A DNA stretch of 49,866 bases from Candidatus Woesebacteria bacterium RIFCSPLOWO2_01_FULL_39_10 (GCA_001793015.1 MGHC01000026.1:13829-63694), one strand, 5' to 3'; counted from the first letter of the stretch, positions 9,948 to 32,506 are shown. Program-made: numbers and translations. Notes: generated by a model from the letters alone, not told the origin.

Positions 9948-12900
9948 TTATCTGAATACAACCGTGTCGGCAAAGTTGTAGTGTCGGGGATAGCGAGATT
10001 GAAAGGTTGTGTTACCGCACCTGCTGGCCCAAAATGACGGCAGTTGTACATAGAGAGCATTTCCTTCTGCAAAACTTTCGTTCTGGTTAGAACCAGCGCT
10101 AGGATATGAGCAGAGAGGGGGTGGCTCAAGCGTTGGCGCCCCTGAATTTATATATCGAGACATCCAGCTTCCGTCGATTGCATCGAGGTGATGAGAGGCC
10201 TCATGGGTTAATATGTAGGTTGCATTATCTTCTCTCGTCAGTCCACCACTATCAAAGCTAATATCGCAAGTTGCGCTATGAGAGTGATATCCCCAAGCCG
10301 CTACAGCGGGCGGGTTGTAGCAAAGATTGACGGTTCCGCCACTGCATACTTTTGAAACAAAAACTGGATATCTTGTAACAAGCCTATTTATTGCTCTTTG
10401 TAAATTGTTTTTATAACCAGAAACAACGGCGCTAGAATTCCAACTGGATGCGTTATCGCTGATTACAAAACAACTCGATGGGGGGGATCCTATTATGACA
10501 GAAACCACCCCCAACGAGGTTTGGGAAGTTCCTGAAGGTTCGGTAGCAGTTACAGTAAATGTGTCGGAGATTAGTGAGTCATTGAATTGGCCTCCTGTGT
10601 ACGGAACCTCGTAGCTTACTAAATAGGGTTGAGTTGCTGATATTTGTTGTGGCGCAGCCGCTGCAATTGAAGGAAAGCTCTGAAGCGGTCCAGATTGAGG
10701 ACCTGCTTGAATATTTGTTTCTAAATCTTGGCAATTTCTAGTGTAGCTTGCATAAACCGAACAAGTGTTAGAAAAACTTATGTTGGTCAAAGTTCCCTGT
10801 AAAGCAGTTATTGTAACTGTATAGGTAACAGTGTAAGTTTGGTTGTTAGCAAGTGGGCCAGAAGGGTTTGCCTCTTTAAAAACTCCGACATATGGATTTG
10901 TTAAAGGTCCTCCAAATGGCGCAAATGTTTGGTGCGGGGGGACGACGAAGGCGCTGTTATTAATAATTAGAATTATAAAAATAAAAAGTAATAGTACTGT
11001 GATTAAAACAATTATTACGGCTTTTGTAAAAATTGGCGCAACAGTATAAACAAGACCTAAGATCATTGAATGAACAAAACCAACAGCCTGTGTTCCAGCT
11101 CCTGCAACTCCGACCGTACTTAAAAAGCTCGAACCAAAAACAACGCCTCCGACCAAGGTCACTGCAAGGCTGGGCAATACGATACCGCCCAACATTATTA
11201 ATGCTCCCATTACCATATAACCATTGCCGCGGTCTTCCTCACCTAAAAGTTTTGGAATGATTGAAACCGCCTTTTTAATTACTGAAAGGACTATTCCTGC
11301 AGCTTTAATTGCGATAGTTACTGCTGTTCCTATTCCGCCAGTAGCTACACCAGTGACTGCACTAGCAGCAAGATTAGCAAGAACTTTACTGCCTGTTTTT
11401 ACTGCAACTTTGGTCACGGTTTTCTTCCCTTCAGTCTTGAGAGATTGCACGACGAGTTTTTTGACTTGCGATTTTGCAACTCCAACGGTTTCGCCAACTG
11501 CAGTTTTTACAATTGGGGAGAGAATTTCTTGCTTTCTTTCAAGCGTTAGGGTTTGAAAGGGAGGAGAGGGAATTTTTGGTGCAACTTGTTCTATTGTAAT
11601 TTCAGGATGCCTAAATGCTAACTGTAGATTTTTGGTTAATTCCTTTTCTGATTCTTCTAGGCTAGCGATAATGTCCGAGCTTATAAAGAAGGACTCCTTT
11701 TCTTCTGGTGTGAGAAATTTGGCCTTAGCTACTTTGTCAATTAAGTCATCACTCCTTCCTCCCTGAAAATAAATTCTTAGCGCGGTTGTAAATTCCACGC
11801 CGTTAAATTCTTTAGAGATTACCCTTGCGGCTTCAAGTTCGTTTCTGGTTACTAGGTCAAGATCAAAGTGTCCGGAATCCTCTACGTGTTTTAAATGTTC
11901 TTTAACGTCCTCCCTGTCTCTAGCTTTTTTTGTTTCCTCACTTTCCTCGACAGTTGGTGTAAATGTTAGATAAATTCTCTCAGGAGCTTTTTCTCCGCCA
12001 GCAAGAATCGGATTGCCTTCAGAATCTAAACTAAAGTAAAGACCTGATTCTACTTTCAAGTCTCCTTTTTCAAGTTTTTCTACAAATCCCTTTTTAAAAT
12101 TCTCGTATCCTTCAGGTGTCTCAACTTTTTGTTGGGATTTTGGTTCTTCCTTATCAGTTCGTTTAGCCCTCTCATCAACTGTTTCTGTATATATATTTCC
12201 TGCTTTGTCTTGCCAAACTAAATGGTAAGTCTTTTTACCTGCCTGCGCAGGCAGGTCTTCTTTTGTTGGAACAGCAAATACATCGTAGTTTGTAATTCCC
12301 GGCCGAAGTTCAAAGGTAGTTGGTGCTTCGAGTTTCTTGCTCGCTTTTTCAACTTCAGGTCCCTGGCCTTGGGGCTTACTTTCGTCTGGTGGTTTCTCGG
12401 GCTCCTTCTTCGCATCCCGATCCTGTCTTTCTTGGTTATATTTTTCTCTTTTAAAAACTTCACGATAGGCTTCATTAATGTCCCTAAGAAGTTCACCCCG
12501 CCTGTTATATTCCTCTTGGGATATCTTGCCTTCTCTAAAATCTTTGTCAATTAAATCTGGATGAAGTTCCTTTTGAAGCTTACGATAGGCGTTTTTGATA
12601 TCTGTTTGTGACGCGGCATCAGTTAACCCGAGAGCTGCGTAATAATGAGCCGATTTTGACTGGCCTGGAGCCCCTTGGCTTTTCCTTCTGAATTCGTCGT
12701 AGTACCTTCTTTTTTCCTCGTTACCCAACGCTTCATTAGCTTCTTGATAGTATTCGTATGCCATTTTGGCTTGCTTGAGCTGTTCTTGTACTTCGCTATC
12801 GGGCACGCCTCTTTCTTTTAAACTTCTTTCCAGCTCGTCCAGGTTTAAAAGTTTCAACCCTTTGTTATATGCAACTTCGATCTCGCGGCCAGTTGCGTTT

Positions 12901-13256
12901 TCGTTTACTCCGAGCTGGGAGTAATAATCATTTTCGGGGGTTACGGGGGTTATAACAGTTGGGGGTTCCTCTTGTTTTTCTTCTTCTTCTCTACCGCCGC
13001 CTCCGCCTCCACCACCATAGTAGTGTTTTTTATGCAATAGTGAATAAAGGATTTTGTAGGCTGTGGGGACTTTGGCTTTTGAATCGTATTCTAAGGCTAG
13101 TTCTGGGTTAGTTTTCCACAATTCCTCGTATTCTGGCTCATGTTTAGTTAGTCTGGGGTCTCCATCAGGACCTAAAAGTCCATTTACATCTGCGATAAAT
13201 TCTATCTCTCTATCTTTATGGCCTTCTTTTAATATTGCTCTTGCTTGATCTTGCAT
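9948..13256 (-). CDS. Large membrane protein: two cytoplasmic J-domain-like modules, a TM bundle, and an extracytoplasmic HExxH gluzincin-like domain
   Basis: 1102 aa. The J domain with an intact HPD is HYYAALGLTDAASQTDIKNAYRKLQKELHPDLID (HPD codons at 12555-12563). An upstream degenerate J-like copy, DYYSQLGVNENATGREIEVAYNKGLKLL, lacks HPD. Hydrophobic helices span aa about 625-770. The C-terminal domain has THEASHH (10188-10205) and a downstream NESFAEGNA motif that could supply a third zinc ligand. Confidence 0.7.
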   Translation of the reverse strand: MQDQARAILKEGHKDREIEFIADVNGLLGPDGDPRLTKHEPEYEELWKTNPELALEYDSKAKVPTAYKILYSLLHKKHYYGGGGGGGGREEEEKQEEPPTVITPVTPENDYYSQLGVNENATGREIEVAYNKGLKLLNLDELERSLKERGVPDSEVQEQLKQAKMAYEYYQEANEALGNEEKRRYYDEFRRKSQGAPGQSKSAHYYAALGLTDAASQTDIKNAYRKLQKELHPDLIDKDFREGKISQEEYNRRGELLRDINEAYREVFKREKYNQERQDRDAKKEPEKPPDESKPQGQGPEVEKASKKLEAPTTFELRPGITNYDVFAVPTKEDLPAQAGKKTYHLVWQDKAGNIYTETVDERAKRTDKEEPKSQQKVETPEGYENFKKGFVEKLEKGDLKVESGLYFSLDSEGNPILAGGEKAPERIYLTFTPTVEESEETKKARDREDVKEHLKHVEDSGHFDLDLVTRNELEAARVISKEFNGVEFTTALRIYFQGGRSDDLIDKVAKAKFLTPEEKESFFISSDIIASLEESEKELTKNLQLAFRHPEITIEQVAPKIPSPPFQTLTLERKQEILSPIVKTAVGETVGVAKSQVKKLVVQSLKTEGKKTVTKVAVKTGSKVLANLAASAVTGVATGGIGTAVTIAIKAAGIVLSVIKKAVSIIPKLLGEEDRGNGYMVMGALIMLGGIVLPSLAVTLVGGVVFGSSFLSTVGVAGAGTQAVGFVHSMILGLVYTVAPIFTKAVIIVLITVLLLFIFIILIINNSAFVVPPHQTFAPFGGPLTNPYVGVFKEANPSGPLANNQTYTVTYTVTITALQGTLTNISFSNTCSVYASYTRNCQDLETNIQAGPQSGPLQSFPSIAAAAPQQISATQPYLVSYEVPYTGGQFNDSLISDTFTVTATEPSGTSQTSLGVVSVIIGSPPSSCFVISDNASSWNSSAVVSGYKNNLQRAINRLVTRYPVFVSKVCSGGTVNLCYNPPAVAAWGYHSHSATCDISFDSGGLTREDNATYILTHEASHHLDAIDGSWMSRYINSGAPTLEPPPLCSYPSAGSNQNESFAEGNALYVQLPSFWASRCGNTTFQSRYPRHYNFADTVVFR

Positions 13257-13265: not shown

Positions 13266-15188
13266 CTAGTACACTGCTGTGCGCGTAGTATTTGTAAGGA
13301 CCGTTGCTTGTTCAAGAAGCTCAGACGGTTTTGTGGTAACTAGTTTGTGCTCTTCGGGGGAAGCAACGACGGTGATTGGTGCGTGGCTTGTTCCTGCAAA
13401 AAATATACCCTCACCAATATTCGCCCCTAAAAGTAGTTGTTTCTCTCCTTGAGAAAGGTAAAAAACTTCGGCAACACGATCAACGGCCGCAGGGGACTGT
13501 TTAAATAAAACCCTTAAAGCAGAATTTGTAACAATTGCTTTTCCAATATCTTGAGCCAAAAAATCCTCAACGTCTTGCGTAATAGTTGTTAATCCCAAAT
13601 AGTATTTTCTTGCTCTTTTTACAATAGACCAAAGAAACTGTGCTGAATCAGCAAATCTCATCATGTGCCAGGCCTCATCAACAACCATCAAGCGTGGCTT
13701 TAAGTCTTTTCTTATTCGTGTCCAGATAAAATCAAGGATTACAAACATGGCAATTGGGCGCAATGTATCTTGTAATTCCCGAATCGAAAAAACAGTAAAC
13801 GGATTTTCCAATTCAATATTTGTCTGCTTATCAAAAATTCCAACAAAGGATCCTTTAACAAACTTTTCAATTCGGGCAGCTAAATCCAGAGCATCTGTCG
13901 TTTCCATTCCGGTAAGAATCTTATAAAGATCTTCCATTAGGGGAGGTTCTTTTGTTTGGGTTTCAGGGTCCTGTGTTATTCCCTTACTCCTGTAGGTTGC
14001 AACAAGCGCTCTGTCCAATAATGCTTCTTGGAATGGGGTTATTTGACCCATAATGACTTTAAAAAGAGAATGGAGAGATAAGATTTTCAAACCGAGGTTA
14101 TTTTCTCCGGCTTCATATACTTGCGATAAATCAAAAGGATTAATTTTAGAAGGAGAGTTAAAAGAAAAAGCGATATTTTGGCCTCCGACGGCATCTGATA
14201 GTGCTATATATTCACCTTCCGGATCAATAATAATAACTTCGGTTCCCAACATAAGGGATCGTACTGACTCAAGTTTTACAAAATAGCTTTTCCCAGCGCC
14301 CGAAGTCGCGAAGACCGTCATGTTTGAATTCTCTAGAGAAAATCTGTCGAAAATAATAAATGAGCCGTTTTGAGTATTAATTCCGTAAAGAATACCTTTG
14401 TCGCTTGAAAGTTCAGCTGAGGTTAACGGAAATGTGGTTGCCAAGGAGGTCGTATCCATGTTTCTAGTAATTGATAATCTGTCCAGACCAAAAGGAGCGG
14501 TTGACAAAAACCCATTTTCCATATCTAAAGTTGCATGCTGAGCGCGTATTAACAATGATCCTAAAGTTGCTTCAACCTGTTTTGTTATATGATTTAATTG
14601 CTCAAGATCCGCAGCCCGAATTGATATATAGAAACCGAACTCGAAAAAATGTTCAGCTCCTTTTACAAGCTCGTCTTGCAAAAGCCTTGCGTCCTCAAGT
14701 TTTGAAGTTGTTCCTGGGTCAACTATTTTCCCTCGCTCAAGGTCCGTTGCCACTTCAGCCTCCATTTCAGCAACTTTTCGCATCAGATCATCCAAAACAT
14801 TTTTCCCCTCAATTGGGTAAATGAAAAACGATATATCCAGAGAACTATTAAAATTCACAACCTGCTCAAGCCAGCCAGGAGACACAAATCGAGGGTAGCC
14901 TGCGATAAAGAGCGTTCTTAAATAAACGTCGTTTATTTTAAAATAGTCGAAATCCACCTCTACTGCAGAGGATGCAACAACATCAAGAACTTCCATTTTT
15001 TGGTTATTTATTGCCTCGACAGGATCTTTAATTGACGGCTTTTTAGTGAGATCTGAAACGGCTGGTTGAGATTTTACTTCTGATGCGACCTGAATTTTTG
15101 GCACAATGGGAATTGCTTGAGTATCAGGTTGGGGAGGAACCTTTTTTTGCTCAGGCTTTTTATTTCGTTTAAAAAGATTAAATTTCAT
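13266..15188 (-). CDS. virB4: VirB4/TrbE/TraC-like type IV secretion ATPase
   Basis: 640 aa. Walker A is ATSGAGKSYF (about 14281-14309) and Walker B is LMVVDEAWHMM. QFLWSIVKRARKYYLGLTTITQDVEDF follows them. Length and motif order fit VirB4-family ATPases. Confidence 0.8.
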   Translation of the reverse strand: MKFNLFKRNKKPEQKKVPPQPDTQAIPIVPKIQVASEVKSQPAVSDLTKKPSIKDPVEAINNQKMEVLDVVASSAVEVDFDYFKINDVYLRTLFIAGYPRFVSPGWLEQVVNFNSSLDISFFIYPIEGKNVLDDLMRKVAEMEAEVATDLERGKIVDPGTTSKLEDARLLQDELVKGAEHFFEFGFYISIRAADLEQLNHITKQVEATLGSLLIRAQHATLDMENGFLSTAPFGLDRLSITRNMDTTSLATTFPLTSAELSSDKGILYGINTQNGSFIIFDRFSLENSNMTVFATSGAGKSYFVKLESVRSLMLGTEVIIIDPEGEYIALSDAVGGQNIAFSFNSPSKINPFDLSQVYEAGENNLGLKILSLHSLFKVIMGQITPFQEALLDRALVATYRSKGITQDPETQTKEPPLMEDLYKILTGMETTDALDLAARIEKFVKGSFVGIFDKQTNIELENPFTVFSIRELQDTLRPIAMFVILDFIWTRIRKDLKPRLMVVDEAWHMMRFADSAQFLWSIVKRARKYYLGLTTITQDVEDFLAQDIGKAIVTNSALRVLFKQSPAAVDRVAEVFYLSQGEKQLLLGANIGEGIFFAGTSHAPITVVASPEEHKLVTTKPSELLEQATVLTNTTRTAVY

Positions 15189-15193: not shown

Positions 15194-15862
15194 TTAACTG
15201 AAAATATCCTTTTCTTTTACCGGCGACTCAGGGTTATAGACATTGTAAATAAGTTTAATCAGATCTTCGCTTGCAAGGGGACGTAACTTGATTTGTAATC
15301 TTCCAGCCTGACGTATTAAGTGGTCCCTTCTAGGAAGGAGTGCAATTTTTGCTTTTCTGACAACATAGGATTTTGGATACGGAAGCGGGCTCTTTTGCCC
15401 TGAAGGTCGAAGAGTTGAGAGTATCGATTTAGCTACACCCAGTTCGTAAGGCGTAAAAGGAATAACAACGTAAAACTTTTTACTTAAAACGTTTTTCTTT
15501 TTGATCGCATCGAGAATAAACATCTTATAATCTTCCATTACACTAAATAGCTTTGGGTTCTTAATTTTTTTTTCGGCTTCGGTTAAAAATTCCATATATC
15601 GGGAAATATCCTTTTTCTGAGTTCTTACAATAATTTGCGTTGGAAAGTTAAAAGAGTTTAGAAGTCCCGCGTAACTTGCTATAACGGCATTCTGCTCCCT
15701 TTCGCTCAAAAGTCCAAAATTAAGTGAGGTCGACTCCATGATTAAAGCTGCGCCCCCGTTTTTGTAGATAACCACACCGTCAACAATATCTGCAATAGGA
15801 ATTAAATCTTGGGTTGTTGAGGTAAGGGCTTTGTCCGGTGTTGATAAAAACGGTATTGTCAT
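15194..15862 (-). CDS. Hypothetical T4SS-associated protein resembling the N-terminal domain of VirB4/TraC-type ATPases
   Basis: 222 aa. DLIPIADIVDGVVIYKNGGAALIMESTSLNFGLLSEREQNAVIASYAGLLNSFNFPTQIIVRTQ follows the pattern seen at the start of Gram-positive VirB4 homologs. It has no Walker motifs and sits 6 nt upstream of virB4. Confidence 0.45.
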   Translation of the reverse strand: MTIPFLSTPDKALTSTTQDLIPIADIVDGVVIYKNGGAALIMESTSLNFGLLSEREQNAVIASYAGLLNSFNFPTQIIVRTQKKDISRYMEFLTEAEKKIKNPKLFSVMEDYKMFILDAIKKKNVLSKKFYVVIPFTPYELGVAKSILSTLRPSGQKSPLPYPKSYVVRKAKIALLPRRDHLIRQAGRLQIKLRPLASEDLIKLIYNVYNPESPVKEKDIFS

Positions 15863-21894: not shown

Positions 21895-21906
21895 TTAGTT
21901 ACAAAA

Positions 21907-25700: not shown

Positions 25701-27843
25701 TCCTCTTTTCTCCTTGGGTTGTAAGATTTCCAAAGATGTCAGTATCTGGCGGGTCATATTCTGCTCGGCCTATTACTCCATTTAAATACCAACTGACATA
25801 TTCGTTTACTTTTTGTGGGTCGGTTACTGTTTCGTCTTGAAATCGGCTGTTTATAACTCTAAAAGGGTCAGACTGGTTACCTATTGAAGGTTCAGTGTAA
25901 CCCATTATCGGTAATTCTGTATCTTGAGGGTCGATGGTGATATCCCTGGTTCTTGAGATGTTAAAAACGCAAGTTTCGGTTCCGTCGCCGTTATCACGAC
26001 AATCAGGAGAGTTTGCGCACTGATTAGGAAGGGTCGGATCGCAAGTGTTTAAAGACGGAATGCATTGTGAAGATGGAGTAGTGGATACCGAAGTACATTG
26101 CGGAGCAAGCCAGTGTTCAATATCTGGCTCATTCGGCCCAGTAATTGCGTAAACAGTCCCGCTTACTTGACTGTCAATTGACCGAAGGAAGGCTCCGTAT
26201 TGTGATGCTGACGGACCACTTGTCCAACTTGCATCACCAATTCGGATTATCGGAATAAGGTTACGACTATGTGCGATACCAATATCTGTAAGGACTGGGG
26301 TTTCGTCGATGCCGTTGGAAATAGCTAGTGTGTAAATCATTCCATCGACTCCATCGACGTCTGAGTAAAATTGTGACGGGGCTGAGTAATATACAGCAGA
26401 ATTCGCTCCAAGTTTTGTGCACGGAAGGCTACCGCAGGCGGTTGCAAAGTCGGATATCTTTCCCTGGTTCAGTAAATTTGGATTCCAAGTTGCGGGATCG
26501 TAATTTCCGTAACCGAAACCGTTAAAGAATAGCGCCCCTAAGTAACTGGAATCTCCCTTTACTAACGACATTTGTGTTCCAAGATCGCCCAGTGTTCCAT
26601 CGATAACGCCTGTTTCGGTTACCATTACAGGAAGGTTTAAGCCAGTAGCTGTTCTGAAGGCCGACACGTGTCCGGTAACATTATTACCACAACAGTTATA
26701 AGCGTTTCCTGCGATACCAGTAAGAGATGACCAGTCGGCACCGGCAGCATTCATTGCGCTCGCAATTTGATATGTCACGGGATTTGTGAAGTTAAATGCA
26801 GGAGAAAGAAATTTAATATGCGTTAAAGGCCCTGCGCTTGTTGCGCTGGATATCACACCATTCATATAAGATGCAAGTGCAGTTCCCATACAAGTTGGGT
26901 CAAATCCGATTGGTGAACAATTTCCGCCTCGACAGGCATAGCATGCTGCTCCAAGAGGTGTAGAAGGAACTGCGGGAGGAGAGGAGTAGCTTCCTGAATA
27001 ATTTGAGGGGTCGAATTGTTTATCAACGCTAAAGCTGTCAGTTAAAATAAAATCGTTTCCGCAAAAAAGCGCCAAATCTTCCAAACGCCTATTACAAGGA
27101 CTTGCCTGGTAGGGTCTTAGAGAGTGAAATTCGCCTTCAAAAGGATGAGTTAAGTTTGGCCTCGTTTCGTTACAAGGAACATACGGATCTGGATATGGGG
27201 TGCGCCTTCCAGGCGGTGGAGGATTTGTAACAGAATTACTACAAATTGCAGGAGGACGCTTTGGGTCATATTCTGGATTTCGTACGCTGCAAGAGCCGTA
27301 TGTTTTTGACTCTGGGCAATGACTTACAGGTGAACCGCAGCAGAATACATTTGAGCCGCAGGCCAAAATATCAGTTATTCCAGTCCAGGCACCTGTATTA
27401 AAAGTAACATCTGAGGGTGTGGCAAATTGTTGCCATCCTTTGTCAACGGAAATACCGGCCGGTGTGATAGGACCATCAAAGTTTGTTCCCCAACAAATAA
27501 GGGACGTATTACTCCAACTTGTTCGAGAGCAATAAGGTATAGTTTCCGCAGCCGTACCACAAACTGGGTTTCTAACAGCGTCATAAGCATTTGCTTCCCA
27601 CTGAGTATCGCATTTTACCGCGACCCCCTGTGTATTAATTGTTGCGTCATATAGAATTGCAGGTGGGGTCGGAGCTGCTGTATCGCAGGCACAGTTACTG
27701 CCGTCAGGATTGACGCAATAACAGGCAGCCTTAATTTCTTTTGGAAATGTAAAAAATAGTAAGAAGAAAAAACCCACTAAGAAAGTCAAGAAGTATATTC
27801 TAATAAACTCTTTGTTATTAAAAAAAAAATTGGACAGAAACAT
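22780..27843 (-). CDS. Giant secreted Cys-rich multi-hydrolase with clan GH-A-like TIM-barrel module(s) and a C-terminal lysozyme-like domain
   Basis: 1687 aa with an N-terminal TM/signal (IYFLTFLVGFFFLLFFTF). The GH-A motif is IRNWEFWNEPDMW (Glu codon at 23830-23832) and the nucleophile motif is KIWLTEYGF (Glu codon at 23494-23496). Earlier NEP-like and TE-like motifs are YAITGPNEPDIEHW (about 26111-26150) and VMVTETGV. The C-terminus CNRESGGNPTALNDDCRIGATPDYSAGLFQIN (from 23127 downward) parallels the E...S..DYG.xQIN pattern of C-type lysozyme and lytic transglycosylases. Knottin-like Cys clusters occur throughout. Confidence 0.65.
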   Translation of the reverse strand: MFLSNFFFNNKEFIRIYFLTFLVGFFFLLFFTFPKEIKAACYCVNPDGSNCACDTAAPTPPAILYDATINTQGVAVKCDTQWEANAYDAVRNPVCGTAAETIPYCSRTSWSNTSLICWGTNFDGPITPAGISVDKGWQQFATPSDVTFNTGAWTGITDILACGSNVFCCGSPVSHCPESKTYGSCSVRNPEYDPKRPPAICSNSVTNPPPPGRRTPYPDPYVPCNETRPNLTHPFEGEFHSLRPYQASPCNRRLEDLALFCGNDFILTDSFSVDKQFDPSNYSGSYSSPPAVPSTPLGAACYACRGGNCSPIGFDPTCMGTALASYMNGVISSATSAGPLTHIKFLSPAFNFTNPVTYQIASAMNAAGADWSSLTGIAGNAYNCCGNNVTGHVSAFRTATGLNLPVMVTETGVIDGTLGDLGTQMSLVKGDSSYLGALFFNGFGYGNYDPATWNPNLLNQGKISDFATACGSLPCTKLGANSAVYYSAPSQFYSDVDGVDGMIYTLAISNGIDETPVLTDIGIAHSRNLIPIIRIGDASWTSGPSASQYGAFLRSIDSQVSGTVYAITGPNEPDIEHWLAPQCTSVSTTPSSQCIPSLNTCDPTLPNQCANSPDCRDNGDGTETCVFNISRTRDITIDPQDTELPIMGYTEPSIGNQSDPFRVINSRFQDETVTDPQKVNEYVSWYLNGVIGRAEYDPPDTDIFGNLTTQGEKRIIDFSGPLKRLLSWESQVVRRIQEVDKQQQGNIRHNQIVACSNILLGVSHCYPGLQLPPLIPPGARLSDFVTQAPPLQRIWNISLLSSIWNLYWNLVNPGQPPPPLPVNPSPFFVYWIRYQFWRLFNPASSTMFSYIPFSSTEDRVGQSRLDTYSIQPAGSSSVTILSSQITKQNPSFLYFSHMLESNELGELLQTLHSYKGADLAAPADPAIAPSAQYCDIREIRSNPGDSLFASNLTATIQYTAQMSCDFAIYDPTLQGNLCSKLTGGSGSCQPLPVSNWNCSNYYGQVDCGLNQFCGVGCTPAAPTCIPSGQVCEASGISLGQCCPGLACNTGTGNLTCGIDPNFGSNLNLTQNCSSTATIALQTVTETPLADEVWSRLVAGPAAVFKRIFPKIEDAPGRPIRRLWDIPAASPVNYTVTGGALAGNPATGRLGSQAELYFPHIGGIHEYFLNCIQKTLRPKGFGQGCTSAPDPLNDPYAPLGQIGGARCGISAQSWRIKDNPTQFTQHFRTLGVTNVRFGIDWAAVEGATKDVYDWNGNGIDTAVNTMLGNNTTIIGIFVTIPPWNTINPGDPNDPNSCIRNQTKCVMDRNDQNVVNEFRQFAQDVVRKYPRIRNWEFWNEPDMWENFKGINGNYDPNGNFDPALYVFWLNQFSDAAKQVDSSLTIAAAAPLGGAGASAVDDYYRYNGRFDAVTFHPYGANRNTDPLDRNNVLAIRDIMVTRGYSNNKIWLTEYGFNTIHATNSNYCIGGLSYAEQAQRVQDALSWIFTQNYVEFADLHMLHDIPPPEGPLCMGLTGEPLAGFSPLKDAYQVFQSLCTAPAAPTGGRCQIGTGLCSPTYLSQWFPGCHANQASVICNRESGGNPTALNDDCRIGATPDYSAGLFQINLLVHPPVCAAAFSYTSYPNPSCQILDQPTVDYCLYGDGQTFFGYFDPDENAAYASAMSGGGQDWSPWGSPNVICMQLVASLCP

Positions 27844-27851
27844 GTTGGGCC

Positions 27852-28172
27852 CTATGGTGCTATTTGGAAATTTAGAATGTTCAATTGTCCGGTAAAAACT
27901 CCGATGAATCGCAGGAATAAATATGATAAAGCAAGAAGTACCATTCCTCCAATTGCGTATGTCAAAGTTTTTTTGGCTTGTTCTATGGCCTTAGGGTCTC
28001 CGCCTCCTGTAATAAACTGAATACCTCCCCAAATAAGCATAAAAAAAAGAACGATGCCTGCAAGTCCAAGTAGAGCAGCAATTGCGTTTTCAAAAATGCC
28101 CTCCAATCCTTTGAGGGTAGCAATTCCACTTATATTGTGAACTCCCGCCTGGGCAAGTAGCTTACTTTCCAT
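27852..28172 (-). CDS. VirB2/TrbC-like T4SS pilin-module protein P1
   Basis: 106 aa. Two TM helices flank FITGGGDPKAIEQAKKTLTYAIGG. An AGAGG Shine-Dalgarno lies 2 nt before the ATG. Confidence 0.7.
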   Translation of the reverse strand: MESKLLAQAGVHNISGIATLKGLEGIFENAIAALLGLAGIVLFFMLIWGGIQFITGGGDPKAIEQAKKTLTYAIGGMVLLALSYLFLRFIGVFTGQLNILNFQIAP

Positions 28173-28242
28173 ACCTCTAGTTTAATTGAAGAATTTGAGA
28201 AGGGCAACTGGTGTATTGATAGAATCTTATAGTTTTGTCCAC

Positions 28243-28266
28243 AAAAAAACCCCGATTTAATCGGGG
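28243..28266 (-). terminator. Rho-independent terminator after pilin P2
   Basis: On the minus strand the sequence reads CCCCGATTAAATCGGGG followed by TTTTTTT (plus-strand A-run at 28243-28249). It lies 20 nt after the P2 stop. Confidence 0.7.
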
Positions 28267-28286
28267 TTCTCTTTTTCTTACTCCTT

Positions 28287-28637
28287 TTATGGAGCTTGTG
28301 CATTCGGGATATTGAGTTGCAATATGTTTACCCCGAAGAATATATTAACTAAGTTGATTATTGCCCAAGCTGCAAAGACTATAACTAATCCAACTAGTGC
28401 TGCGGTGATTTGACCTCGCGCAGCCTCTGTCTGGGCTTTGTCGCCACCTGAAGTTATGTATCTTACTCCACCCCAGACTAGCATGAAGAAGAAAACTAAA
28501 GCTGCGACAATAAGAACTAAAATTATTAGAGCGGAAATAATGTTAGCAATCGTAATGTTATTAAGACCCGAGAACTGTCCTCCAGGGCTAATGTTGATTG
28601 GACTTTGGGCGAGAACTGTTGAAAAAAGTGTTGTCAT
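28287..28637 (-). CDS. VirB2/TrbC-like pilin-module protein P2 (own promoter and terminator; candidate major pilin)
   Basis: 116 aa, with YITSGGDKAQTEAARGQITAALVG between two TM helices. Confidence 0.7.
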   Translation of the reverse strand: MTTLFSTVLAQSPINISPGGQFSGLNNITIANIISALIILVLIVAALVFFFMLVWGGVRYITSGGDKAQTEAARGQITAALVGLVIVFAAWAIINLVNIFFGVNILQLNIPNAQAP

Positions 28638-28670
28638 GAAATTTATTTAATTATCTTTATGCTGATTATT

Positions 28671-28700
28671 ATTATGGCCATCACCAATTCTTTTTGTCAA
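28671..28700 (-). promoter_or_regulatory. Sigma70-like promoter for P2 (TTGACA-N18-CATAAT)
   Basis: On the minus strand, TTGACA is the reverse complement of 28695-28700 and CATAAT is the reverse complement of 28671-28676. The -10 element ends 33 nt before the P2 ATG. Confidence 0.45.
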
Positions 28701-28801
28701 GGGGTAAAATGATCTCAATTTTATCCCCTAACGGACATTTTGTGTGCAAAAAAACTTTTTTCTTGACCCAACTTACATTTCCTGCAAGGTGAGTTTTTCA
28801 A

Positions 28802-29176
28802 TTAAGGTATTCTAATTGCATTAATCATTGACTGAAGGTCGAGGATGTCCGGGAGTCCAAGTAAGGTGGCGATAAGGTCAAAAAGAAACATTGCGGCAAT
28901 TACAGCGACAAAACCGATTGCCCCAGTTGTGATTCTTCTTCTGGCACTTTCGTACGCCGCTTTATCTCCACCAGATGAAATAATACCTAGGGCACCTGTT
29001 ATTAGTACGAACATAAAGTAAAGTGCTCCGATGACTGTTAAAACGCCGATGGTTGTCGACAAGATTTGAGCAAGAATTCCAACGGCTCCTCCAGCACCTC
29101 CCACCAAACCAATAGTCCCTATACCGCTTAAGGGATTACCAATGGGTGTAGGATTTTGTGCAATCAAACTTTCCAT
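28802..29176 (-). CDS. VirB2/TrbC-like pilin-module protein P3
   Basis: 124 aa, with IISSGGDKAAYESARRRITTGAIG between two TM helices. Confidence 0.7.
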   Translation of the reverse strand: MESLIAQNPTPIGNPLSGIGTIGLVGGAGGAVGILAQILSTTIGVLTVIGALYFMFVLITGALGIISSGGDKAAYESARRRITTGAIGFVAVIAAMFLFDLIATLLGLPDILDLQSMINAIRIP

Positions 29177-29178
29177 AG

Positions 29179-29514
29179 TTAAGGGGTAAAGACCTTTAAC
29201 TGTAATAATGCGTTTGCGTCGTTAAAGAGAATTAGTCCAATAACTGCCGCGAGTACGAAAGCCCCTGCAGCAATAATCAGGCCCAAAACGCTATGCCAAA
29301 TTTTTGCACCAGCATCTTGAATTCTTTTTGGGTCACCGCCTGCTGAAAGATAGGCATAACCGGCAAGAATTAAGTTAAGTACTGTATAGATCCCGGCTCC
29401 GACAATCAGAGTTCGCAGAATAATGTTTAGAAGTACCTGTAGTCCATTCACACTTCCTCCGGCAAAAGGACGTAGCCAGGTTGGTACAGGAACACTTCCC
29501 CAAGGATTTTGCAT
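29179..29514 (-). CDS. VirB2/TrbC-like pilin-module protein P4
   Basis: 111 aa, with YLSAGGDPKRIQDAGAKIWHSVLG between two TM helices. Confidence 0.7.
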   Translation of the reverse strand: MQNPWGSVPVPTWLRPFAGGSVNGLQVLLNIILRTLIVGAGIYTVLNLILAGYAYLSAGGDPKRIQDAGAKIWHSVLGLIIAAGAFVLAAVIGLILFNDANALLQLKVFTP

Positions 29515-29518
29515 ATTA

Positions 29519-29845
29519 TTAACCTAAAATACTTACACCAAATGTACTCTCAATAAAACGTACAATCAAAAATGCAACTGCTATTATTATAAAGCCAATG
29601 ATTCCTGCTGTGATAATATTTTTTCCCTGCTCAATCTTTTGCGGATCTCCAGCCCCAGTAATCATATAAAAACCCGCAATAATTATAAGAATTACAAGAA
29701 CAACTCCTGCTACCATTATGGCGTTAGATAAAAGGATGGAGACAAGTTGCCCTAATCCTTCAACGCCAGGGTTAAGATCTCCTAAAAAATGTCCAACCTG
29801 GCCAAAAAAAGATTGGTCTATATCAACCTGCGCAAGATAGTTCAT
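29519..29845 (-). CDS. VirB2/TrbC-like pilin-module protein P5
   Basis: 108 aa, with MITGAGDPQKIEQGKNIITAGIIG between two TM helices. Confidence 0.7.
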   Translation of the reverse strand: MNYLAQVDIDQSFFGQVGHFLGDLNPGVEGLGQLVSILLSNAIMVAGVVLVILIIIAGFYMITGAGDPQKIEQGKNIITAGIIGFIIIAVAFLIVRFIESTFGVSILG

Positions 29846-29914
29846 AGTTAAAGTTTAATACAATACTATGTTAGAACTCAAATATTAGATCTCAAAACCA
29901 TATCTTAGAGCTAT

Positions 29915-30304
29915 TTAACTTCTTTTACCTTTCATTGTCAAAAGACTAGATGCAATCATTTTTCCGATCTCTTTTGCTTCAGACAGGAGTGGCTCTACTT
30001 TGTCTACTTTTTCTAGTTTTGAATCTTCCAGGAGCATCAACCAATAGATAGTTTCGTTAGTGCTTTTAAGGGCAATCTCATAAAATTTTATGAAGTCCCT
30101 TTTAGAACTCGATGACTTGGCTTCGACTAGGTTTGCTCCGATAGAAGTCGCGCAACGTAATAATTGATCTTCGATTATCCAATAAACTCTTTTTTCAGGA
30201 AAATCCTTAACGAAAACAATAATTGATAACGAAAATTGATAGGCTCTGTATTTTACATTAGATCTTAGATTTAAGTTATGGTTTTGAGTTTTGAGATACG
30301 ACAT
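29915..30304 (-). CDS. Four-helix-bundle protein (23S rRNA IVS protein / Avd family), copy 3
   Basis: The ORF track gives 29915-30331. I prefer the ATG at 30304 (MSYLKTQNH...), which avoids overlap with the upstream gene. The signature is TSIGANLVEAKSSSSKRDFIKFYEIALKSTNETIYWLMLL. Confidence 0.75.
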   Translation of the reverse strand: MSYLKTQNHNLNLRSNVKYRAYQFSLSIIVFVKDFPEKRVYWIIEDQLLRCATSIGANLVEAKSSSSKRDFIKFYEIALKSTNETIYWLMLLEDSKLEKVDKVEPLLSEAKEIGKMIASSLLTMKGKRS

Positions 30305-30317
30305 ATGAGTTTGTTTC

Positions 30318-31115
30318 TCATCCAAAAACATTTATTATTGGTGGTAAATTAAGAATTCGTGCAACGAGCTGCACTATCCAGAATGCCACAAATATTACAA
30401 TGAAACCAACAATTGCGTACATAATTTTTTCCCGGCCTGCTGCAATTCCTTTCGGATCTCCCTGAGAGGTAAGAATTTGATATCCACCCATGACAATGTA
30501 AATAAGAATAAGAAAACCAACAATTCCAAAGATGTATGGTAAAAGTGCAGCGACAATATTTCCTACACTACATATATTCGTTAATCCGCAGTTCCAGAAG
30601 TTTGGCAACCCTAACCTAATAAATCTTCCAAATTGTATGCCAGCTCGTCCGACTGGCGGGGGGGTTGGTTGGCAAAATACGCAGGATAAACACTGAGATT
30701 GGCCGCATTGAGATGTCGTACAGTAAGGATCACATGGCAATCCTACAGGTCCTAGGACATCTAGATTTTCAATACAGTTTTTCGGACTCGTTGTACTGGT
30801 ACTTGTTGCTGATATTGAATATCTCCCACGGGCTGTACAATTTACCGAAATGGGGGTTGAATTTTGCCCCAACGCGTCAGTCTGAAATGGGGTGGTTGCT
30901 GAGCAGGCGTTATTATTGAAAGCCAGATTATACCTTGTATTTGCATTTCCATTCGTCAAATTGATATTACCGGGCACACCTGCCGAAAGTGGATTCGGAG
31001 TAAATGTTAGGTTGCACTGCCCAGCTTGTGCATGAACTTTGGTGGGTTGAGATAGGAAAAGCACTCCAAACAAAAGAAAGATAGTTGCAATTAAAGTAAT
31101 TTTAATTATCTTCAT
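30318..31115 (-). CDS. Pilin-module fusion P6: signal peptide, Cys-rich ectodomain, then a C-terminal VirB2/TrbC-like module
   Basis: 265 aa. The signal is LLFGVLFLSQPTKVHAQA. The Cys-rich part is CDPYCTTSQCGQSQCLSCVFCQP. The C-terminus LTSQGDPKGIAAGREKIMYAIVG lies between two TM helices. Confidence 0.65.
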   Translation of the reverse strand: MKIIKITLIATIFLLFGVLFLSQPTKVHAQAGQCNLTFTPNPLSAGVPGNINLTNGNANTRYNLAFNNNACSATTPFQTDALGQNSTPISVNCTARGRYSISATSTSTTSPKNCIENLDVLGPVGLPCDPYCTTSQCGQSQCLSCVFCQPTPPPVGRAGIQFGRFIRLGLPNFWNCGLTNICSVGNIVAALLPYIFGIVGFLILIYIVMGGYQILTSQGDPKGIAAGREKIMYAIVGFIVIFVAFWIVQLVARILNLPPIINVFG

Positions 31116-32506
31116 AATCCTGGAATATTAAGAATTCGTACTCCGATAAGTCTTAAAATATAAACTCCAAAAAGGAGTAATAATAAACCGCTAATAGCTG
31201 CGGTCAAAAGCTCTTTTCCCGCCTGAAGTCTCTGAGGATTTCCTGCTGAGGTTATTACCAAAAATGCTGCGTAGATAATCAAAAGAAAGGCAATGCCACC
31301 TGCAATTCCAATTGCCCAACCGAGAATAAATTCTGCAAAATCATTCTTGTTTGTTATTGGAATGCAGCCGATTGCTGTGTAAAGTTTTCCAGTTAATAAA
31401 GGATCTATGGTTGGATTTCCAGAAGCGTCGCAGTAAACCATGGGTGGTTTGGAAGTAGCAGGTGATGCGGGTACACAACAAATTTGGCCCAAAGAGCAAA
31501 CTGAATTAGGGTCAAGTGGATTATTTATTCCATCTGGGGTGGTTCCTGGAATTGAACCGCAAGTAAACCCAGTAACACATGTTCCAGATTGTCCTGTAGA
31601 AACCCCCGTACATGTGGTGGGAGCCTGAAGGCAACTGAGAGTATTTTCTACGCAATAACCGCCAACGCATTTTTGTAAAAGATTACATTGTCCATTAGCC
31701 CCACAAGTGCCACTTGTATCAGTACAACTAAGACAGACAGTTGGTCGGTAATCGCATTGATAACCAGTAAGGCCTATTCCGGTGTTATAGCATACATATC
31801 CTGGCGGGCATCCACCCCCTCCACAAGTGAGATTATAATCAGTACAGATATTACACGAAGAGAGGGGATCAAATACGCATTGCCCGCTTGCGTTACACGT
31901 TTCTGTAGGACGGCATCTTCCGCCCGCTCCACAGCCCCCAATAGCGGGATTACAAATTTGAGTTGTAGGTAGCGGTTGATTTAGAGTACAACCAGTAATT
32001 AAAGGAATAGCACCTCCATCCAAAATTTGTGTTCGATCTCTGATAATGAAGTAAGGTATGACTCTAATCCCGACTTGGCCGCTTGGATAATTAGATAAGC
32101 CACCTGGTGCTGAATGCGAACCAAGATTTGCGGTTTGTCCAAGAGGACAAATTGTGGGTAAATTACCAGTACAATCATAAATTTGGACATCGTTTGTAAG
32201 TCGGTAAGAAGAAACAACATTAGATGGTCCGCACGGCCCATCGCAACAATCGATTAGTAGACTGTAGGAGGGGTTTGATATAGTACTTAGGTAAACATCG
32301 GCATCAGCTATACCTTGTATTAATCTGCTACTTACGGTAATACTAACTTGAGCAGTTGAACAGCTGGAAATATTTGATAGGACTTCAATTTCACCTGCTA
32401 TACCTGACGGAGTGGGAGTTTGTGCGTAAAGTACGGAATTATTAAAAATGAAAGTCGCTATAAAAATAGTAATAAAGACTACCAAAATCTGAAGTAACCT
32501 TTTCAT
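31112..32506 (-). CDS. Pilin-module fusion P7: signal peptide, large Cys-rich ectodomain, then a C-terminal VirB2/TrbC-like module
   Basis: 464 aa. The signal-like N-terminus is followed by many CxxGxC-type clusters (CNASGQCVFDPLSSCNICTDYNLTCGGGGCPPGYVC...). The C-terminus ITSAGNPQRLQAGKELLTAAISG lies between two TM helices. Its stop overlaps the P6 start by 4 nt. Confidence 0.65.
   Translation of the reverse strand: MKRLLQILVVFITIFIATFIFNNSVLYAQTPTPSGIAGEIEVLSNISSCSTAQVSITVSSRLIQGIADADVYLSTISNPSYSLLIDCCDGPCGPSNVVSSYRLTNDVQIYDCTGNLPTICPLGQTANLGSHSAPGGLSNYPSGQVGIRVIPYFIIRDRTQILDGGAIPLITGCTLNQPLPTTQICNPAIGGCGAGGRCRPTETCNASGQCVFDPLSSCNICTDYNLTCGGGGCPPGYVCYNTGIGLTGYQCDYRPTVCLSCTDTSGTCGANGQCNLLQKCVGGYCVENTLSCLQAPTTCTGVSTGQSGTCVTGFTCGSIPGTTPDGINNPLDPNSVCSLGQICCVPASPATSKPPMVYCDASGNPTIDPLLTGKLYTAIGCIPITNKNDFAEFILGWAIGIAGGIAFLLIIYAAFLVITSAGNPQRLQAGKELLTAAISGLLLLLFGVYILRLIGVRILNIPGL

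What the first reader, a model, noticed from the sequence alone, without database searches (positions are those of the whole stretch)
9948..32506. Type IV secretion / pilus-like super-locus beside oriC with no relaxase or VirD4
Between dnaN and the degraded DUF4143 gene, almost every gene is on the minus strand and the set reads as one envelope machine. It includes 7 VirB2/TrbC-like pilin-module genes, and a 1687-aa multi-hydrolase ending in a lysozyme-like domain that could fill the VirB1 role. It also includes a polytopic VirB6/TrbL-like protein, a PrgI/VirB3-like protein and a VirB4-like ATPase (Walker A ATSGAGKSYF, Walker B VVDEAWHMM). I see no VirD4-type coupling ATPase, VirB11, relaxase, integrase or att-like junction. 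The locus is wedged into the origin neighbourhood, so it does not look like an ordinary conjugative element. The accessory parts are a J-domain/metallopeptidase membrane protein, a Hint-tailed VirB6, pilin-ectodomain fusions and interspersed four-helix-bundle genes. None of these belongs to any T4SS architecture I know. Given the reduced-genome CPR-like context, a host-contact, DNA-uptake or effector-delivery apparatus is a reasonable hypothesis.
Basis: partly seen in the sequence, partly recalled or inferred. Interest (0 to 1): 0.8.

Follow-up and report, generated by a model that had tools for sequence, protein, structure and literature searches.

The report
Patescibacterial (CPR) type IV secretion locus
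This is the origin-proximal, relaxase-less type IV secretion and pilus gene cluster that most candidate-phyla-radiation bacteria carry, here in a Woesebacteria-like genome; it is real but was already described in 2023-2025 papers, and only a few lineage-specific add-ons look new.

Summary
Window 9358-32506 encodes a VirB4 ATPase, a TrsD-like VirB4 N-domain protein, a PrgI/VirB3-like protein and a polytopic VirB6 candidate. It also encodes a 1687-aa wall hydrolase ending in an SLT_3 lysozyme domain and seven VirB2-type pilin modules. No relaxase, coupling protein or integrase lies anywhere in the 49.9 kb.

It is not new as a kind. Quinonero-Coronel et al. 2025 (PMC12102498) describe this Patescibacteria T4SS clade, its pilin arrays, its near-absence of relaxases and its proximity to dnaA/dnaN. 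They cite Wang et al. 2023 (PMC10633639), where the T4SS gene cluster, including its pilin genes, is essential for epibiotic growth.

In 80 related loci the order pilins-hydrolase-VirB6-[opposite-strand gene]-PrgI-TrsD-VirB4-dnaN-dnaA recurs. The locus is therefore ancestral at the origin, not wedged in, and not an ICE.

The accessory parts are lineage-specific. The J-domain extension is shared with one relative, and the Hint tail was seen on no other VirB6-like protein examined. The four-helix-bundle genes are inverted-repeat-bracketed cassettes, variably present.

One lead was not found in the papers read. The only plus-strand gene (17483-19744) fills a fixed slot whose occupant differs undetectably between close relatives.

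Verdict: new member of a known kind; interest about 0.35.

The parts
9358..9930 (-). 190-aa bitopic membrane protein (N-terminal TM helix plus ectodomain), last gene of the PrgI-VirB4 block, abutting dnaN
   Evidence: One TM helix at aa 13-31. No family hit. Orthologues sit in the same position in 8 loci and in L081.
9948..13256 (-). 1102-aa membrane protein. Cytoplasmic N-terminus with two J domains (nt 12432-12944; HPD at aa 232), four TM helices (nt 10962-11333), then an ectodomain (nt 9951-10961) with an Ig-like domain and an HExxH...E motif (HEASH at nt 10191-10205).
   Evidence: DnaJ Pfam E=5.5e-14 with two stretches. TM helices. HExxH plus E(S/D)FAE conserved in alignment A5. Profile against PDB gives the M34 peptidase PPEP-1 only at E~0.07. 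The fold model gave only Ig-like hits. The L081 orthologue aligns only to aa 417-1101 of this protein, so it has no counterpart of the J-domain region. L084 has the J-domain module.
13266..15188 (-). VirB4 ATPase (640 aa) of the CD1110 / MPF_FATA type, lacking its own N-terminal domain
   Evidence: NCBIfam conju_CD1110 370 bits against a 325-bit cut-off, matching profile positions 177-735. PDB 4AG5 E=5e-43. Pfam P-loop_TraG E=3e-26.
15194..15862 (-). 222-aa TrsD-like protein, the separately encoded N-terminal domain of VirB4
   Evidence: Matches positions 2-137 of conju_CD1110, positions 87-233 of VirB4_plasma, and TrsD NF041427 (E=2.4e-5), all below their cut-offs. Orthologues carry PF26593 TraC-like hits. 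Present in 74 of 80 loci.
15948..16946 (-). 332-aa PrgI/VirB3-like membrane protein with a C-terminal Ig-like (CarboxypepD_reg) ectodomain
   Evidence: PrgI E=7.7e-5 (23.6 bits, gathering score 27) and CarboxypepD_reg E=4e-5. Present next to TrsD in 71 of 80 loci.
16998..17375 (-). Four-helix-bundle (23S_rRNA_IVP) gene cassette 1, bracketed by an inverted repeat at 16964-16994 / 17374-17404. Probably not a machine part.
   Evidence: Pfam E=1.9e-27 and TIGR02436. Flanking inverted repeat. Absent in L081. Present at the same site in L003, L005 and L085.
17483..19744 (+). 753-aa soluble, charged, mostly alpha-helical protein of unknown function. It is the only plus-strand gene, diverges from PrgI and converges on VirB6, and fills the 'variable slot'.
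   Evidence: No TM helices. No Pfam, NCBIfam or PADLOC hit. 42 representative clusters among 1.84 billion proteins. All six members looked up sit in the same slot. AF2 model pLDDT 77.5 and pTM 0.72, with no PDB or viral fold match.
19776..21791 (-). 671-aa polytopic VirB6 candidate (signal peptide plus about 8 TM helices) with a C-terminal Hint (intein-like) domain at nt 19854-20228
   Evidence: Hydrophobic segments. Position conserved in 25 loci, where homologues are 510-600 aa and lack a Hint domain. Weak TrbL hit in 1 of 18 members. Hint: Pfam Hint_2, consensus intein 6DSL E=2e-6, and 50-67% identity to 417 small CPR Hint proteins.
21907..22278 (-). Four-helix-bundle (23S_rRNA_IVP) gene cassette 2, bracketed by an inverted repeat at 21869-21896 / 22285-22312
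   Evidence: Pfam E=2.6e-25. Inverted repeat. Absent in L081. Present at the same site in L083.
22304..22843 (-). 179-aa bitopic membrane protein (TM helix at aa 37-55 plus a small ectodomain). Its annotated TTG start overlaps the hydrolase gene.
   Evidence: Homologues in L002 and L012. A 159-aa gene occupies the same position in L083. No family hit.
22780..27843 (-). 1687-aa signal-anchored, Cys-rich surface protein ending in an SLT_3 lysozyme-like domain (nt 22831-23130). This is the VirB1-role candidate.
   Evidence: SLT_3 34.4 bits, or 42.4 bits alone, against a gathering score of 27. Weak GH hits at aa ~1300-1500. Orthologues of 800-1185 aa in 9 loci. Split into 632 + 398 aa in L081.
27852..29845 (-). 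Five short VirB2-type pilin genes: 27852-28172, 28287-28637, 28802-29176, 29179-29514 and 29519-29845
   Evidence: PF18895 E=2e-11, 6e-11, 3e-4, none, and 4e-10 respectively. Shared two-TM module. 1:1 orthologues in L081 at 57-85% identity.
29915..30331 (-). Four-helix-bundle (23S_rRNA_IVP) gene cassette 3, bracketed by an inverted repeat at 29882-29913 / 30266-30297
   Evidence: Pfam E=6.7e-25. Inverted repeat. Absent in L081.
30318..31115 (-). 265-aa protein: signal peptide, Cys-rich ectodomain, then a C-terminal pilin module (nt 30321-30578)
   Evidence: PF18895 E=2.4e-8 at aa 186-251.. The L081 orthologue is a plain 129-aa pilin.
31112..32506 (-). 464-aa protein: signal peptide, large Cys-rich ectodomain, then a C-terminal pilin module (nt 31115-31339). 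First gene of the locus.
   Evidence: PF18895 E=5.8e-4 at aa 394-446.. The L081 orthologue is 280 aa.

Best explanation
This is the chromosomal type IV secretion system of the Patescibacteria clade, in a Woesebacteria-like (Microgenomatia) genome. That clade is a derivative of the monoderm MPF_FATA conjugation machinery that has gained VirB2-type pilins and lost its link to DNA-processing genes.

The locus has three transcription blocks:
- pilins, hydrolase, 179-aa protein and VirB6 (32506 to 19776, minus strand)
- PrgI, TrsD, VirB4, the J/HExxH membrane protein and the 190-aa protein (about 17400 to 9358, minus strand)
- one divergent plus-strand gene (17483-19744)

Likely mechanism. Steps 1-3 are inferred from what is established for VirB/Trw systems. 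Steps 4-5 are speculative.
1. PrgI/VirB3 and the polytopic VirB6 candidate form the membrane platform.
2. The split VirB4 (TrsD N-domain plus the 640-aa ATPase) docks on that platform. It uses ATP to pull the two-helix pilins out of the membrane and polymerise them into a filament or conduit through the wall.
3. The SLT_3 hydrolase, and possibly the HExxH ectodomain, open peptidoglycan.
4. The two pilin-ectodomain fusions act as minor or tip pilins that contact the host cell.
5. The cargo is not relaxase-bound DNA. Protein or some other host-directed traffic is most likely.

The origin-proximal position is ancestral and conserved.
For: Identity of the parts:
- VirB4 passes the CD1110 equivalog cut-off, and HerA is negligible.
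- The best solved relative is a monoderm VirB4.
- TrsD and the 640-aa ATPase together tile the full VirB4 model, positions 2-137 plus 177-735.
- PF18895 pilins, SLT_3 and PrgI are present.

Relatives and synteny:
- 585 relatives were confirmed in the genome collection. The best are titled Woesebacteria or Microgenomates, at 54-82% identity.
- Gene order is conserved. TrsD occurs in 74 of 80 loci, PrgI in 71 of 80, and DnaA/DnaN in 64 of 80. VirB6, hydrolase and pilins appear wherever the 10-kb flank reaches them.
- The closest relative, L081, has the same locus bounded by dnaN and SpoIID.

Context:
- Four DnaA-box-like sites lie in the dnaA-dnaN spacer.
- No relaxase, T4CP or integrase is in the window.

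Literature:
- PMC12102498 reports 2,425 VirB4 in one Patescibacteria clade nested in MPF_FATA, together with TrsD, PrgI and pilin arrays of 2-11 genes that are common in Microgenomatia. It also reports only 109 relaxase homologues in 103 of 3,035 genomes, and dnaA/dnaN/rnpA near virB4.
- PMC10633639 shows that the T4SS gene cluster, including its pilin genes, is essential in Southlakia epibionticum, with no recognisable coupling protein or relaxase.
- PMC12857230 reports that the comEC deletion mutant remains viable.
Against: - The PrgI and TrsD matches are below curated cut-offs.
- The VirB6 candidate has no significant profile or PDB match.
- No VirB8-like protein was identified.
- I built no VirB4 tree, so clade membership is inferred from nearest relatives and synteny.
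- All functional data come from Saccharibacteria, not Microgenomatia.
- A coupling protein could lie elsewhere in this genome. The 2025 paper finds VirD4-like genes in most genomes, usually far from virB4, and sister lineages carry one in the locus.
- The cargo and the direction of transport are unknown.
Confidence: 0.8

Rival explanations
1. It is an import machine. A ComB- or Ced-like T4SS would take up DNA or nucleotides from the host, making up for the missing nucleotide synthesis of CPR cells.
For: - No relaxase or T4CP in the window, as in H. pylori ComB.
- The VirB4 has a weak CedB hit, E=5e-15.
- The PNAS perspective PMC11665869 names the T4SS as a candidate nucleotide-acquisition route, because comEC is dispensable.
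- In the ABY1 class the T4SS sits beside comF, recG and radA.
Against: - The CedB score is 55 bits against a 700-bit cut-off.
- No CedA- or ComB-specific parts, nuclease or DNA-binding protein were found in the locus.
- There is no experimental support in any CPR organism.
Confidence: 0.15
2. It is a working conjugation system whose coupling protein and an unrecognised relaxase are encoded elsewhere. Alternatively, the unknown slot protein is the DNA-processing factor.
For: - VirB4 belongs to a conjugative family.
- Gottesmanbacteria-type loci carry a TrwB/TraG-type T4CP inside the locus, beside a large unknown protein.
- The 2025 paper leaves open 'very different relaxases'.
Against: - Position and synteny next to dnaA are vertically conserved in 64 of 80 loci.
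- No integrase or att site is present.
- The 753-aa protein family has no invariant His or Tyr and no HUH motif.
- Relaxase homologues were found in only 103 of 3,035 genomes.
Confidence: 0.04
3. It is a decayed integrative conjugative element that happened to land beside oriC.
For: A DUF4143 ATPase fragment and an MNT/HepT toxin-antitoxin pair lie at the pilin end, 32578-34258. Three small cassette-like genes lie inside the locus.
Against: - The closest relative has the same locus between dnaN and SpoIID without those insertions.
- All core genes are intact.
- No direct repeats flank the locus, and no tRNA gene abuts either end.
- The order is conserved across many genomes titled Woesebacteria, Gottesmanbacteria, Daviesbacteria, Curtissbacteria and other Microgenomates.
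Confidence: 0.01

Closest known systems
Patescibacteria-clade T4SS (Quinonero-Coronel et al. 2025, PMC12102498; Southlakia epibionticum SEML1_0006-0019, Wang et al. 2023, PMC10633639)
   Same: It shares VirB4 with a separate TrsD, PrgI/VirB3, VirB6 and a tandem array of divergent VirB2-like pilins. It also shares a wall hydrolase and a peptidase-like gene next to virB4, the absence of a relaxase, a chromosomal position near dnaA/dnaN/rnpA, and the array style typical of Microgenomatia.
   Different: This copy has a two-J-domain extension on the protein downstream of virB4, a Hint tail on VirB6, an unusually large 1687-aa hydrolase and three four-helix-bundle cassettes. The paper reports VirB6 as scarce in Microgenomatia. 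Here a positionally conserved polytopic candidate is present but is invisible to TrbL/VirB6 profiles.
MPF_FATA conjugative T4SS of Firmicutes (CTn2 CD1110 type; pGO1 Trs; pCF10 Prg)
   Same: VirB4 passes the CD1110 equivalog model. TrsD-like and PrgI-like partners are present. There is no outer-membrane core. A large wall hydrolase fills the VirB1 role.
   Different: Those systems have a T4CP and a relaxase, sit on plasmids or ICEs, and have no VirB2 pilins. This locus has seven pilin modules, has no DNA-processing genes, and is fixed beside the origin.
VirB2/TrbC conjugative pili of Gram-negative T4SS (R388, F, Ti)
   Same: Small two-helix pilins with a short polar loop. VirB4 is the presumed pilin dislocase.
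   Different: There is no VirB5, B7, B9, B10 or B11. Seven old paralogues take the place of one major pilin, and two of them carry large N-terminal ectodomains.
H. pylori ComB and archaeal Ced DNA-import systems
   Same: T4SS-derived, with a VirB4-type ATPase and without a relaxase or coupling protein.
   Different: No ComB- or Ced-specific components were detected. The CedB match is far below its cut-off.

Membership tests
Patescibacteria-clade T4SS | VirB4 ATPase whose nearest relatives are Patescibacteria VirB4 (monophyletic clade inside MPF_FATA) | tested here: inconclusive
   VirB4 identity is met. Many of the 80 best relatives carry CPR record titles and all show the same local gene content, at 54-85% identity. 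No tree with reference MPF classes was built.
Patescibacteria-clade T4SS | TrsD-like protein encoded next to virB4 | tested here: met
   The 222-aa gene lies immediately upstream. It matches TrsD and VirB4 N-terminal profile positions, though below cut-offs. It is present in 74 of 80 loci.
Patescibacteria-clade T4SS | PrgI/VirB3-like membrane protein near virB4 | tested here: inconclusive
   PrgI E=7.7e-5, 23.6 bits against a gathering score of 27. The position is conserved in 71 of 80 loci.
Patescibacteria-clade T4SS | VirB6-like polytopic protein | tested here: inconclusive
   About 9 hydrophobic segments and a conserved position. No PDB profile hit. TrbL E=0.0015 in 1 of 18 members.
Patescibacteria-clade T4SS | Array of divergent VirB2-like pilin genes (PF18895) | tested here: met
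   Seven modules, four of them above the gathering score.
Patescibacteria-clade T4SS | No relaxase near virB4; chromosomal, near dnaA/dnaN | tested here: met
   dnaN ends 6 bp from the locus. DnaA boxes.
Conjugative T4SS / ICE | Relaxase (MOB) and oriT | tested here: not met
   No relaxase family hit on any ORF in the 49.9-kb window. The rest of the genome was not available.
Conjugative T4SS / ICE | Type IV coupling protein (VirD4/TcpA) | tested here: not met
   None in the window. In contrast, loci L038 and L043 carry TrwB_AAD_bind plus TraG-D_C proteins.
Conjugative T4SS / ICE | Integrase or excisionase with flanking att repeats | tested here: not met
   No integrase. No flanking direct repeats. 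Synteny is conserved.
MPF_FATA (Firmicutes CD1110 type) | VirB4 of the CD1110 family | tested here: met
   370 bits against a 325-bit cut-off.
MPF_FATA (Firmicutes CD1110 type) | No VirB2 pilins; surface adhesins instead | tested here: not met
   Seven pilin modules are present.
Ced / ComB DNA importers | CedB-type ATPase or ComB-specific subunits | tested here: not met
   CedB 55 bits against a 700-bit cut-off, and CedD 27.8 bits against 600. No other Ced or ComB parts were found.
Zincin metallopeptidase (M34/PPEP-like), for the ectodomain of the 1102-aa protein | HExxH plus a downstream Glu ligand in a zincin fold | tested here: inconclusive
   The motif is conserved in 7 of 9 aligned homologues. 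PPEP-1 is matched only at E~0.07. The AF2 model (pLDDT 67) gave no zincin match.
Hint / intein-like autoprocessing domain, for the VirB6 tail | N-terminal Cys, a block-B His, and the Hint fold | tested here: met
   CLSEDT and SPGHP motifs are present. Pfam Hint_2 and 6DSL E=2e-6. The domain is 50-67% identical to PF13403 proteins. The C-terminal HN junction is absent (GST), so splicing is unlikely.

The most novel reading that the evidence does not exclude
The one plus-strand gene (17483-19744) marks a fixed 'variable slot' in Microgenomatia T4SS loci. Every related locus has a large, soluble, charged protein on the opposite strand between VirB6 and PrgI. Its sequence family changes between genomes whose VirB4 are up to 89% identical. 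In sister lineages a coupling protein lies in the same inter-gene region on the same strand, with a small cytidylyltransferase-like gene between them. The most novel reading is that these proteins are the missing cargo of the CPR T4SS, or a cargo-handling or host-specificity factor: fast-evolving effectors matched to particular hosts. This was not mentioned in the T4SS papers read here.
Probability: 0.2. Interest if true: 0.7.

Novelty: new member of a known kind. Interest (0 to 1): 0.35.

Why it matters
The Patescibacteria T4SS is essential for epibiotic growth in the one species tested, and its role is called 'completely unknown' (PMC11665869). Any clue to its cargo matters.

This window does not change the picture of the machine. 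It does give three things:
- a clean, complete Microgenomatia example
- a candidate for the VirB6 that profile searches miss in that class
- a concrete, testable candidate for a substrate or specificity factor, namely the variable-slot protein

The pilin paralogues are 1:1 orthologous between genomes (57-85% identity) but only 25-40% identical to each other. This argues for a fixed multi-pilin assembly rather than the antigenic-variation idea raised in the 2025 paper.

Tried and rejected
- ICE or mobile-element reading: rejected on synteny and the lack of integrase or att sites.
- HerA/FtsK reading of the ATPase: rejected.
- Homology among slot proteins: phmmer, jackhmmer, blastp and hhalign all failed to link the window's 753-aa protein to the slot proteins of GTDB-representative loci. 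Only marginal colinear hits appeared between L010 and L011.
- Fold of the 753-aa protein: the model is good, but Foldseek found nothing in PDB or BFVD.
- Defence-system reading of the slot protein, the four-helix-bundle genes and the J-domain protein: no relevant PADLOC hit. One bundle gene gave only a marginal Type II restriction-enzyme hit (E=9.4e-4, 16.5 bits).
- Peptidase fold of the HExxH ectodomain: the shallow alignment gave pLDDT 67, and only Ig-like matches came back.
- VirB6 by profile against PDB: no hit.
- Promoter and terminator scan: no more sites than chance.
- Rfam: nothing inside the locus.

Full report
**What is in the window.**
- The left flank reads rnpA-yidD-yidC-khpB on the minus strand, then dnaA (6637-8007) and dnaN (8231-9352) on the plus strand.
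- Four one-mismatch DnaA boxes cluster in the dnaA-dnaN spacer (8033-8141), and a perfect box lies upstream of dnaA. The origin is therefore within about 1-2 kb of the locus.
- From 9358 to 32506, every gene but one is on the minus strand.
- The right flank holds a DUF4143 ATPase fragment, an MNT/HepT toxin-antitoxin pair, SpoIID, smpB, tmRNA and tRNAs.

**Checking the parts: the ATPase group.**
- The 640-aa ATPase is a VirB4. It scores 370 bits on the NCBIfam CD1110-family equivalog (cut-off 325) and 15.8 bits on HerA (cut-off 970).
- Its best solved relative is the monoderm VirB4 domain 4AG5, E=5e-43.
- It matches only profile positions 177-735. The adjacent 222-aa protein matches positions 2-137 of the same model and also TrsD. 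The pair is therefore a split VirB4, as the literature describes for TrsD.
- The 332-aa protein has a sub-threshold PrgI match and an Ig-like ectodomain.

**Checking the parts: membrane, wall and pilin genes.**
- The 671-aa protein is polytopic and positionally conserved. It is essentially invisible to TrbL/VirB6 profiles and to PDB, so 'VirB6' is a reasoned assignment, not a demonstrated one.
- The 1687-aa protein has a solid SLT_3 lysozyme-like domain at its end. Otherwise it shows only weak glycoside-hydrolase signals.
- All seven pilin modules share the two-helix design with a [ST]xGG[DN]P loop. Four pass the PF18895 threshold.
- Two pilin genes carry large Cys-rich N-terminal ectodomains.
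- No relaxase, coupling protein, VirB11 or integrase is encoded anywhere in the window.

**Relatives and synteny.**
- A scan of one genome per GTDB species with the VirB4 confirmed 585 relatives. The 80 best are 54-82% identical. Many are titled Woesebacteria, Microgenomates, Gottesmanbacteria, Daviesbacteria and the like. Several third-party assemblies are titled Gammaproteobacteria or Pseudomonadales but show the same CPR gene order.
- Within 10 kb of virB4, TrsD occurs in 74 loci, PrgI in 71, and DnaA and DnaN in 64. VirB6, hydrolase and pilins appear wherever the flank reaches them.
- The recurring order is pilins-hydrolase-(179 aa)-VirB6-[opposite-strand gene]-PrgI-TrsD-VirB4-(membrane protein)-(190 aa)-dnaN-dnaA-rnpA.
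- The closest relative, L081 (VirB4 85% identical), has the same locus bounded by dnaN and SpoIID.
- The locus is thus vertically inherited at the origin. It is not inserted there, and it is not an ICE.

**What is already known.**
- Quinonero-Coronel et al. 2025 (PMC12102498) analysed 3,035 Patescibacteria genomes. They found 2,425 VirB4 forming one clade nested in MPF_FATA.
- They found only 109 relaxase homologues, coupling proteins mostly far from virB4, and dnaA, dnaN and rnpA as the commonest neighbours.
- Wang et al. 2023 (PMC10633639) showed by Tn-seq that the T4SS gene cluster of Southlakia epibionticum (SEML1_0006-0019), including its pilin genes, is essential. They noted the missing coupling protein and relaxase.
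- A 2025 review calls these systems unique among monoderms for being required for growth and for their potential to make conjugative pili (PMC12857230).
- A 2024 perspective calls their role 'completely unknown' (PMC11665869).

**The accessory parts: J domains and the HExxH ectodomain.**
- The two J domains occupy an N-terminal extension of about 416 aa that has no counterpart in the L081 orthologue, whose alignment covers only aa 417-1101. None of the 16 homologues in the representative loci has an HPD motif.
- One metagenomic relative, L084, has the same two-J-domain module.
- The HExxH...E motif in the ectodomain is conserved in about half of the homologues. Neither sequence profiles (PPEP-1, E~0.07) nor the fold model establish a peptidase.

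**The accessory parts: the Hint tail and the four-helix-bundle genes.**
- The Hint tail is real but was seen on no other VirB6-like protein. The 25 VirB6 homologues and L081 all stop about where it begins.
- Its nearest relatives, at 50-67% identity, are 417 small CPR proteins. Among the members inspected, the build is an N-terminal anchor, a variable ectodomain and a C-terminal Hint domain ending in GSTL. The tail is therefore a recent domain fusion.
- The N-terminal Cys and the block-B His are kept, but the C-terminal His-Asn is lost. N-terminal cleavage or thioester transfer is plausible, and splicing is not.
- The three four-helix-bundle (23S_rRNA_IVP) genes are each bracketed by a private inverted repeat built of short tandem motifs. 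Each repeat has 21-22 Watson-Crick matches in 28 nt. Random positions average 16.4 +/- 1.0 and reach 21 or more in 0.27% of trials.
- The predicted RNA folds pair these flanks.
- L081 and L084 lack these genes. L083, L085, L003 and L005 have one at the same two sites, and three of those four have flanking repeats.
- They behave like recurrent small cassettes, not like machine subunits.

**The plus-strand gene.**
- The 753-aa protein has no TM helix, no family hit and a disordered N-terminus.
- A word-indexed search of 5.8 billion proteins found one homologue. Full HMMER against 1.84 billion representatives found 42 clusters.
- All six members whose contigs I read lie in the same slot, divergent from PrgI and convergent with VirB6.
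- All 25 representative loci that include both VirB6 and PrgI have at least one large soluble opposite-strand ORF there.
- Those ORFs do not join the 753-aa family or, mostly, each other by any method tried.
- L010 and L011 share 89% VirB4 identity, yet their slot proteins show only marginal colinear similarity. The window and L081 share 85% VirB4 identity and 62% in the slot protein.
- In Gottesmanbacteria-type loci a TrwB/TraG-type coupling protein lies in the same inter-gene region on the same strand as the large unknown protein.
- The AF2 model is confident (pLDDT 77.5, pTM 0.72) and almost all-helical, and it has no fold match.
- I cannot say what this protein does. Effector, cargo adaptor or specificity factor are the readings I rank highest, at roughly 0.2 together.

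**Pilins.**
- Each pilin of the window has a 1:1 orthologue in L081 at 57-85% identity, while paralogues are 25-40% identical to each other.
- This is an old, stable paralogue set. It fits a fixed heteromeric assembly better than ongoing antigenic variation.

**Verdict.**
This is a new member of a known kind.
- The best-supported mechanism is a VirB4-powered pilus and translocon used for host interaction rather than conjugation. The cargo and the direction of transport remain open.

Noticed in passing
window 17483-19744 (+); slot between VirB6 and PrgI in L002-L081: A fixed 'variable slot'. Every related locus has a large soluble opposite-strand ORF here, but the sequence families are not detectably related, even between genomes with 89% identical VirB4. 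The window's family has 42 representative clusters, and all six members examined lie in this slot. The predicted fold is confident but has no match.
   Followed up: yes
window 16964-17404, 21869-22312, 29882-30297: Each of the three 23S_rRNA_IVP four-helix-bundle genes is bracketed by its own 28-32-nt inverted repeat of short tandem motifs, with arms about 350-390 nt apart. Flank complementarity exceeds 99.7% of random positions. The same is seen in L083, L003 and L005. They resemble rRNA intervening-sequence cassettes sitting in an mRNA operon and could be RNase III processing sites.
   Followed up: partly
window 19854-20228 (-): The VirB6 candidate ends in a Hint domain that is 50-67% identical to a large family of small CPR proteins of 122-301 aa. 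The members inspected are built as an anchor, a variable ectodomain and a C-terminal Hint domain. None of the 120 best hits is VirB6-like, so this is a recent domain fusion. The family itself, Hedgehog-like in layout, may deserve a look.
   Followed up: partly
window 12432-12944 (-): The membrane protein downstream of virB4 carries two cytoplasmic J domains. The second has HPD and the first is degenerate. Only L084 among the relatives examined shares this. It could recruit DnaK to the base of the machine.
   Followed up: partly
L038 5649-7844, L043 5521-7713 (also L042, L051): Gottesmanbacteria-type loci encode a TrwB/TraG-type coupling protein inside the T4SS locus, on the opposite strand, in the same VirB6-PrgI region as a ~1200-aa unknown protein and a cytidylyltransferase-like gene. 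The coupling protein is therefore not universally distant from virB4 in Microgenomatia.
   Followed up: partly
window 21763-21793 and 21866-21896: A 31-nt direct repeat (90% identical) duplicates the first codons of the VirB6 gene 103 nt upstream, just below the second four-helix-bundle cassette. It may be a scar of the cassette insertion.
   Followed up: no
window 32578-34258: A truncated DUF4143 ATPase (matching PADLOC PDC-S01 C-termini) and an MNT/HepT toxin-antitoxin pair lie between the pilin array and SpoIID. L081 has SpoIID directly after the pilins, so these are insertions. MNT/HEPN pairs also occur inside the locus in L017, L021 and L085.
   Followed up: partly
window 27852-32506 versus L081 17114-20859: The pilin paralogues are 1:1 orthologous between genomes (57-85% identity) but only 25-40% identical within an array. 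The ectodomain of the 265-aa pilin fusion is absent from its 129-aa orthologue.
   Followed up: partly
window 23000-28000: The hydrolase gene has a clearly higher G+C (0.44-0.46) than the rest of the window (0.33-0.41). This may be compositional (a Cys/Gly/Pro/Ala-rich protein) rather than a sign of foreign origin.
   Followed up: no
window 39205-39471 (-), 41223-43424: A small GIY-YIG-domain ORF sits beside the tmRNA gene, and four of the five tRNA genes in 2.2 kb are tRNA-Ser.
   Followed up: no
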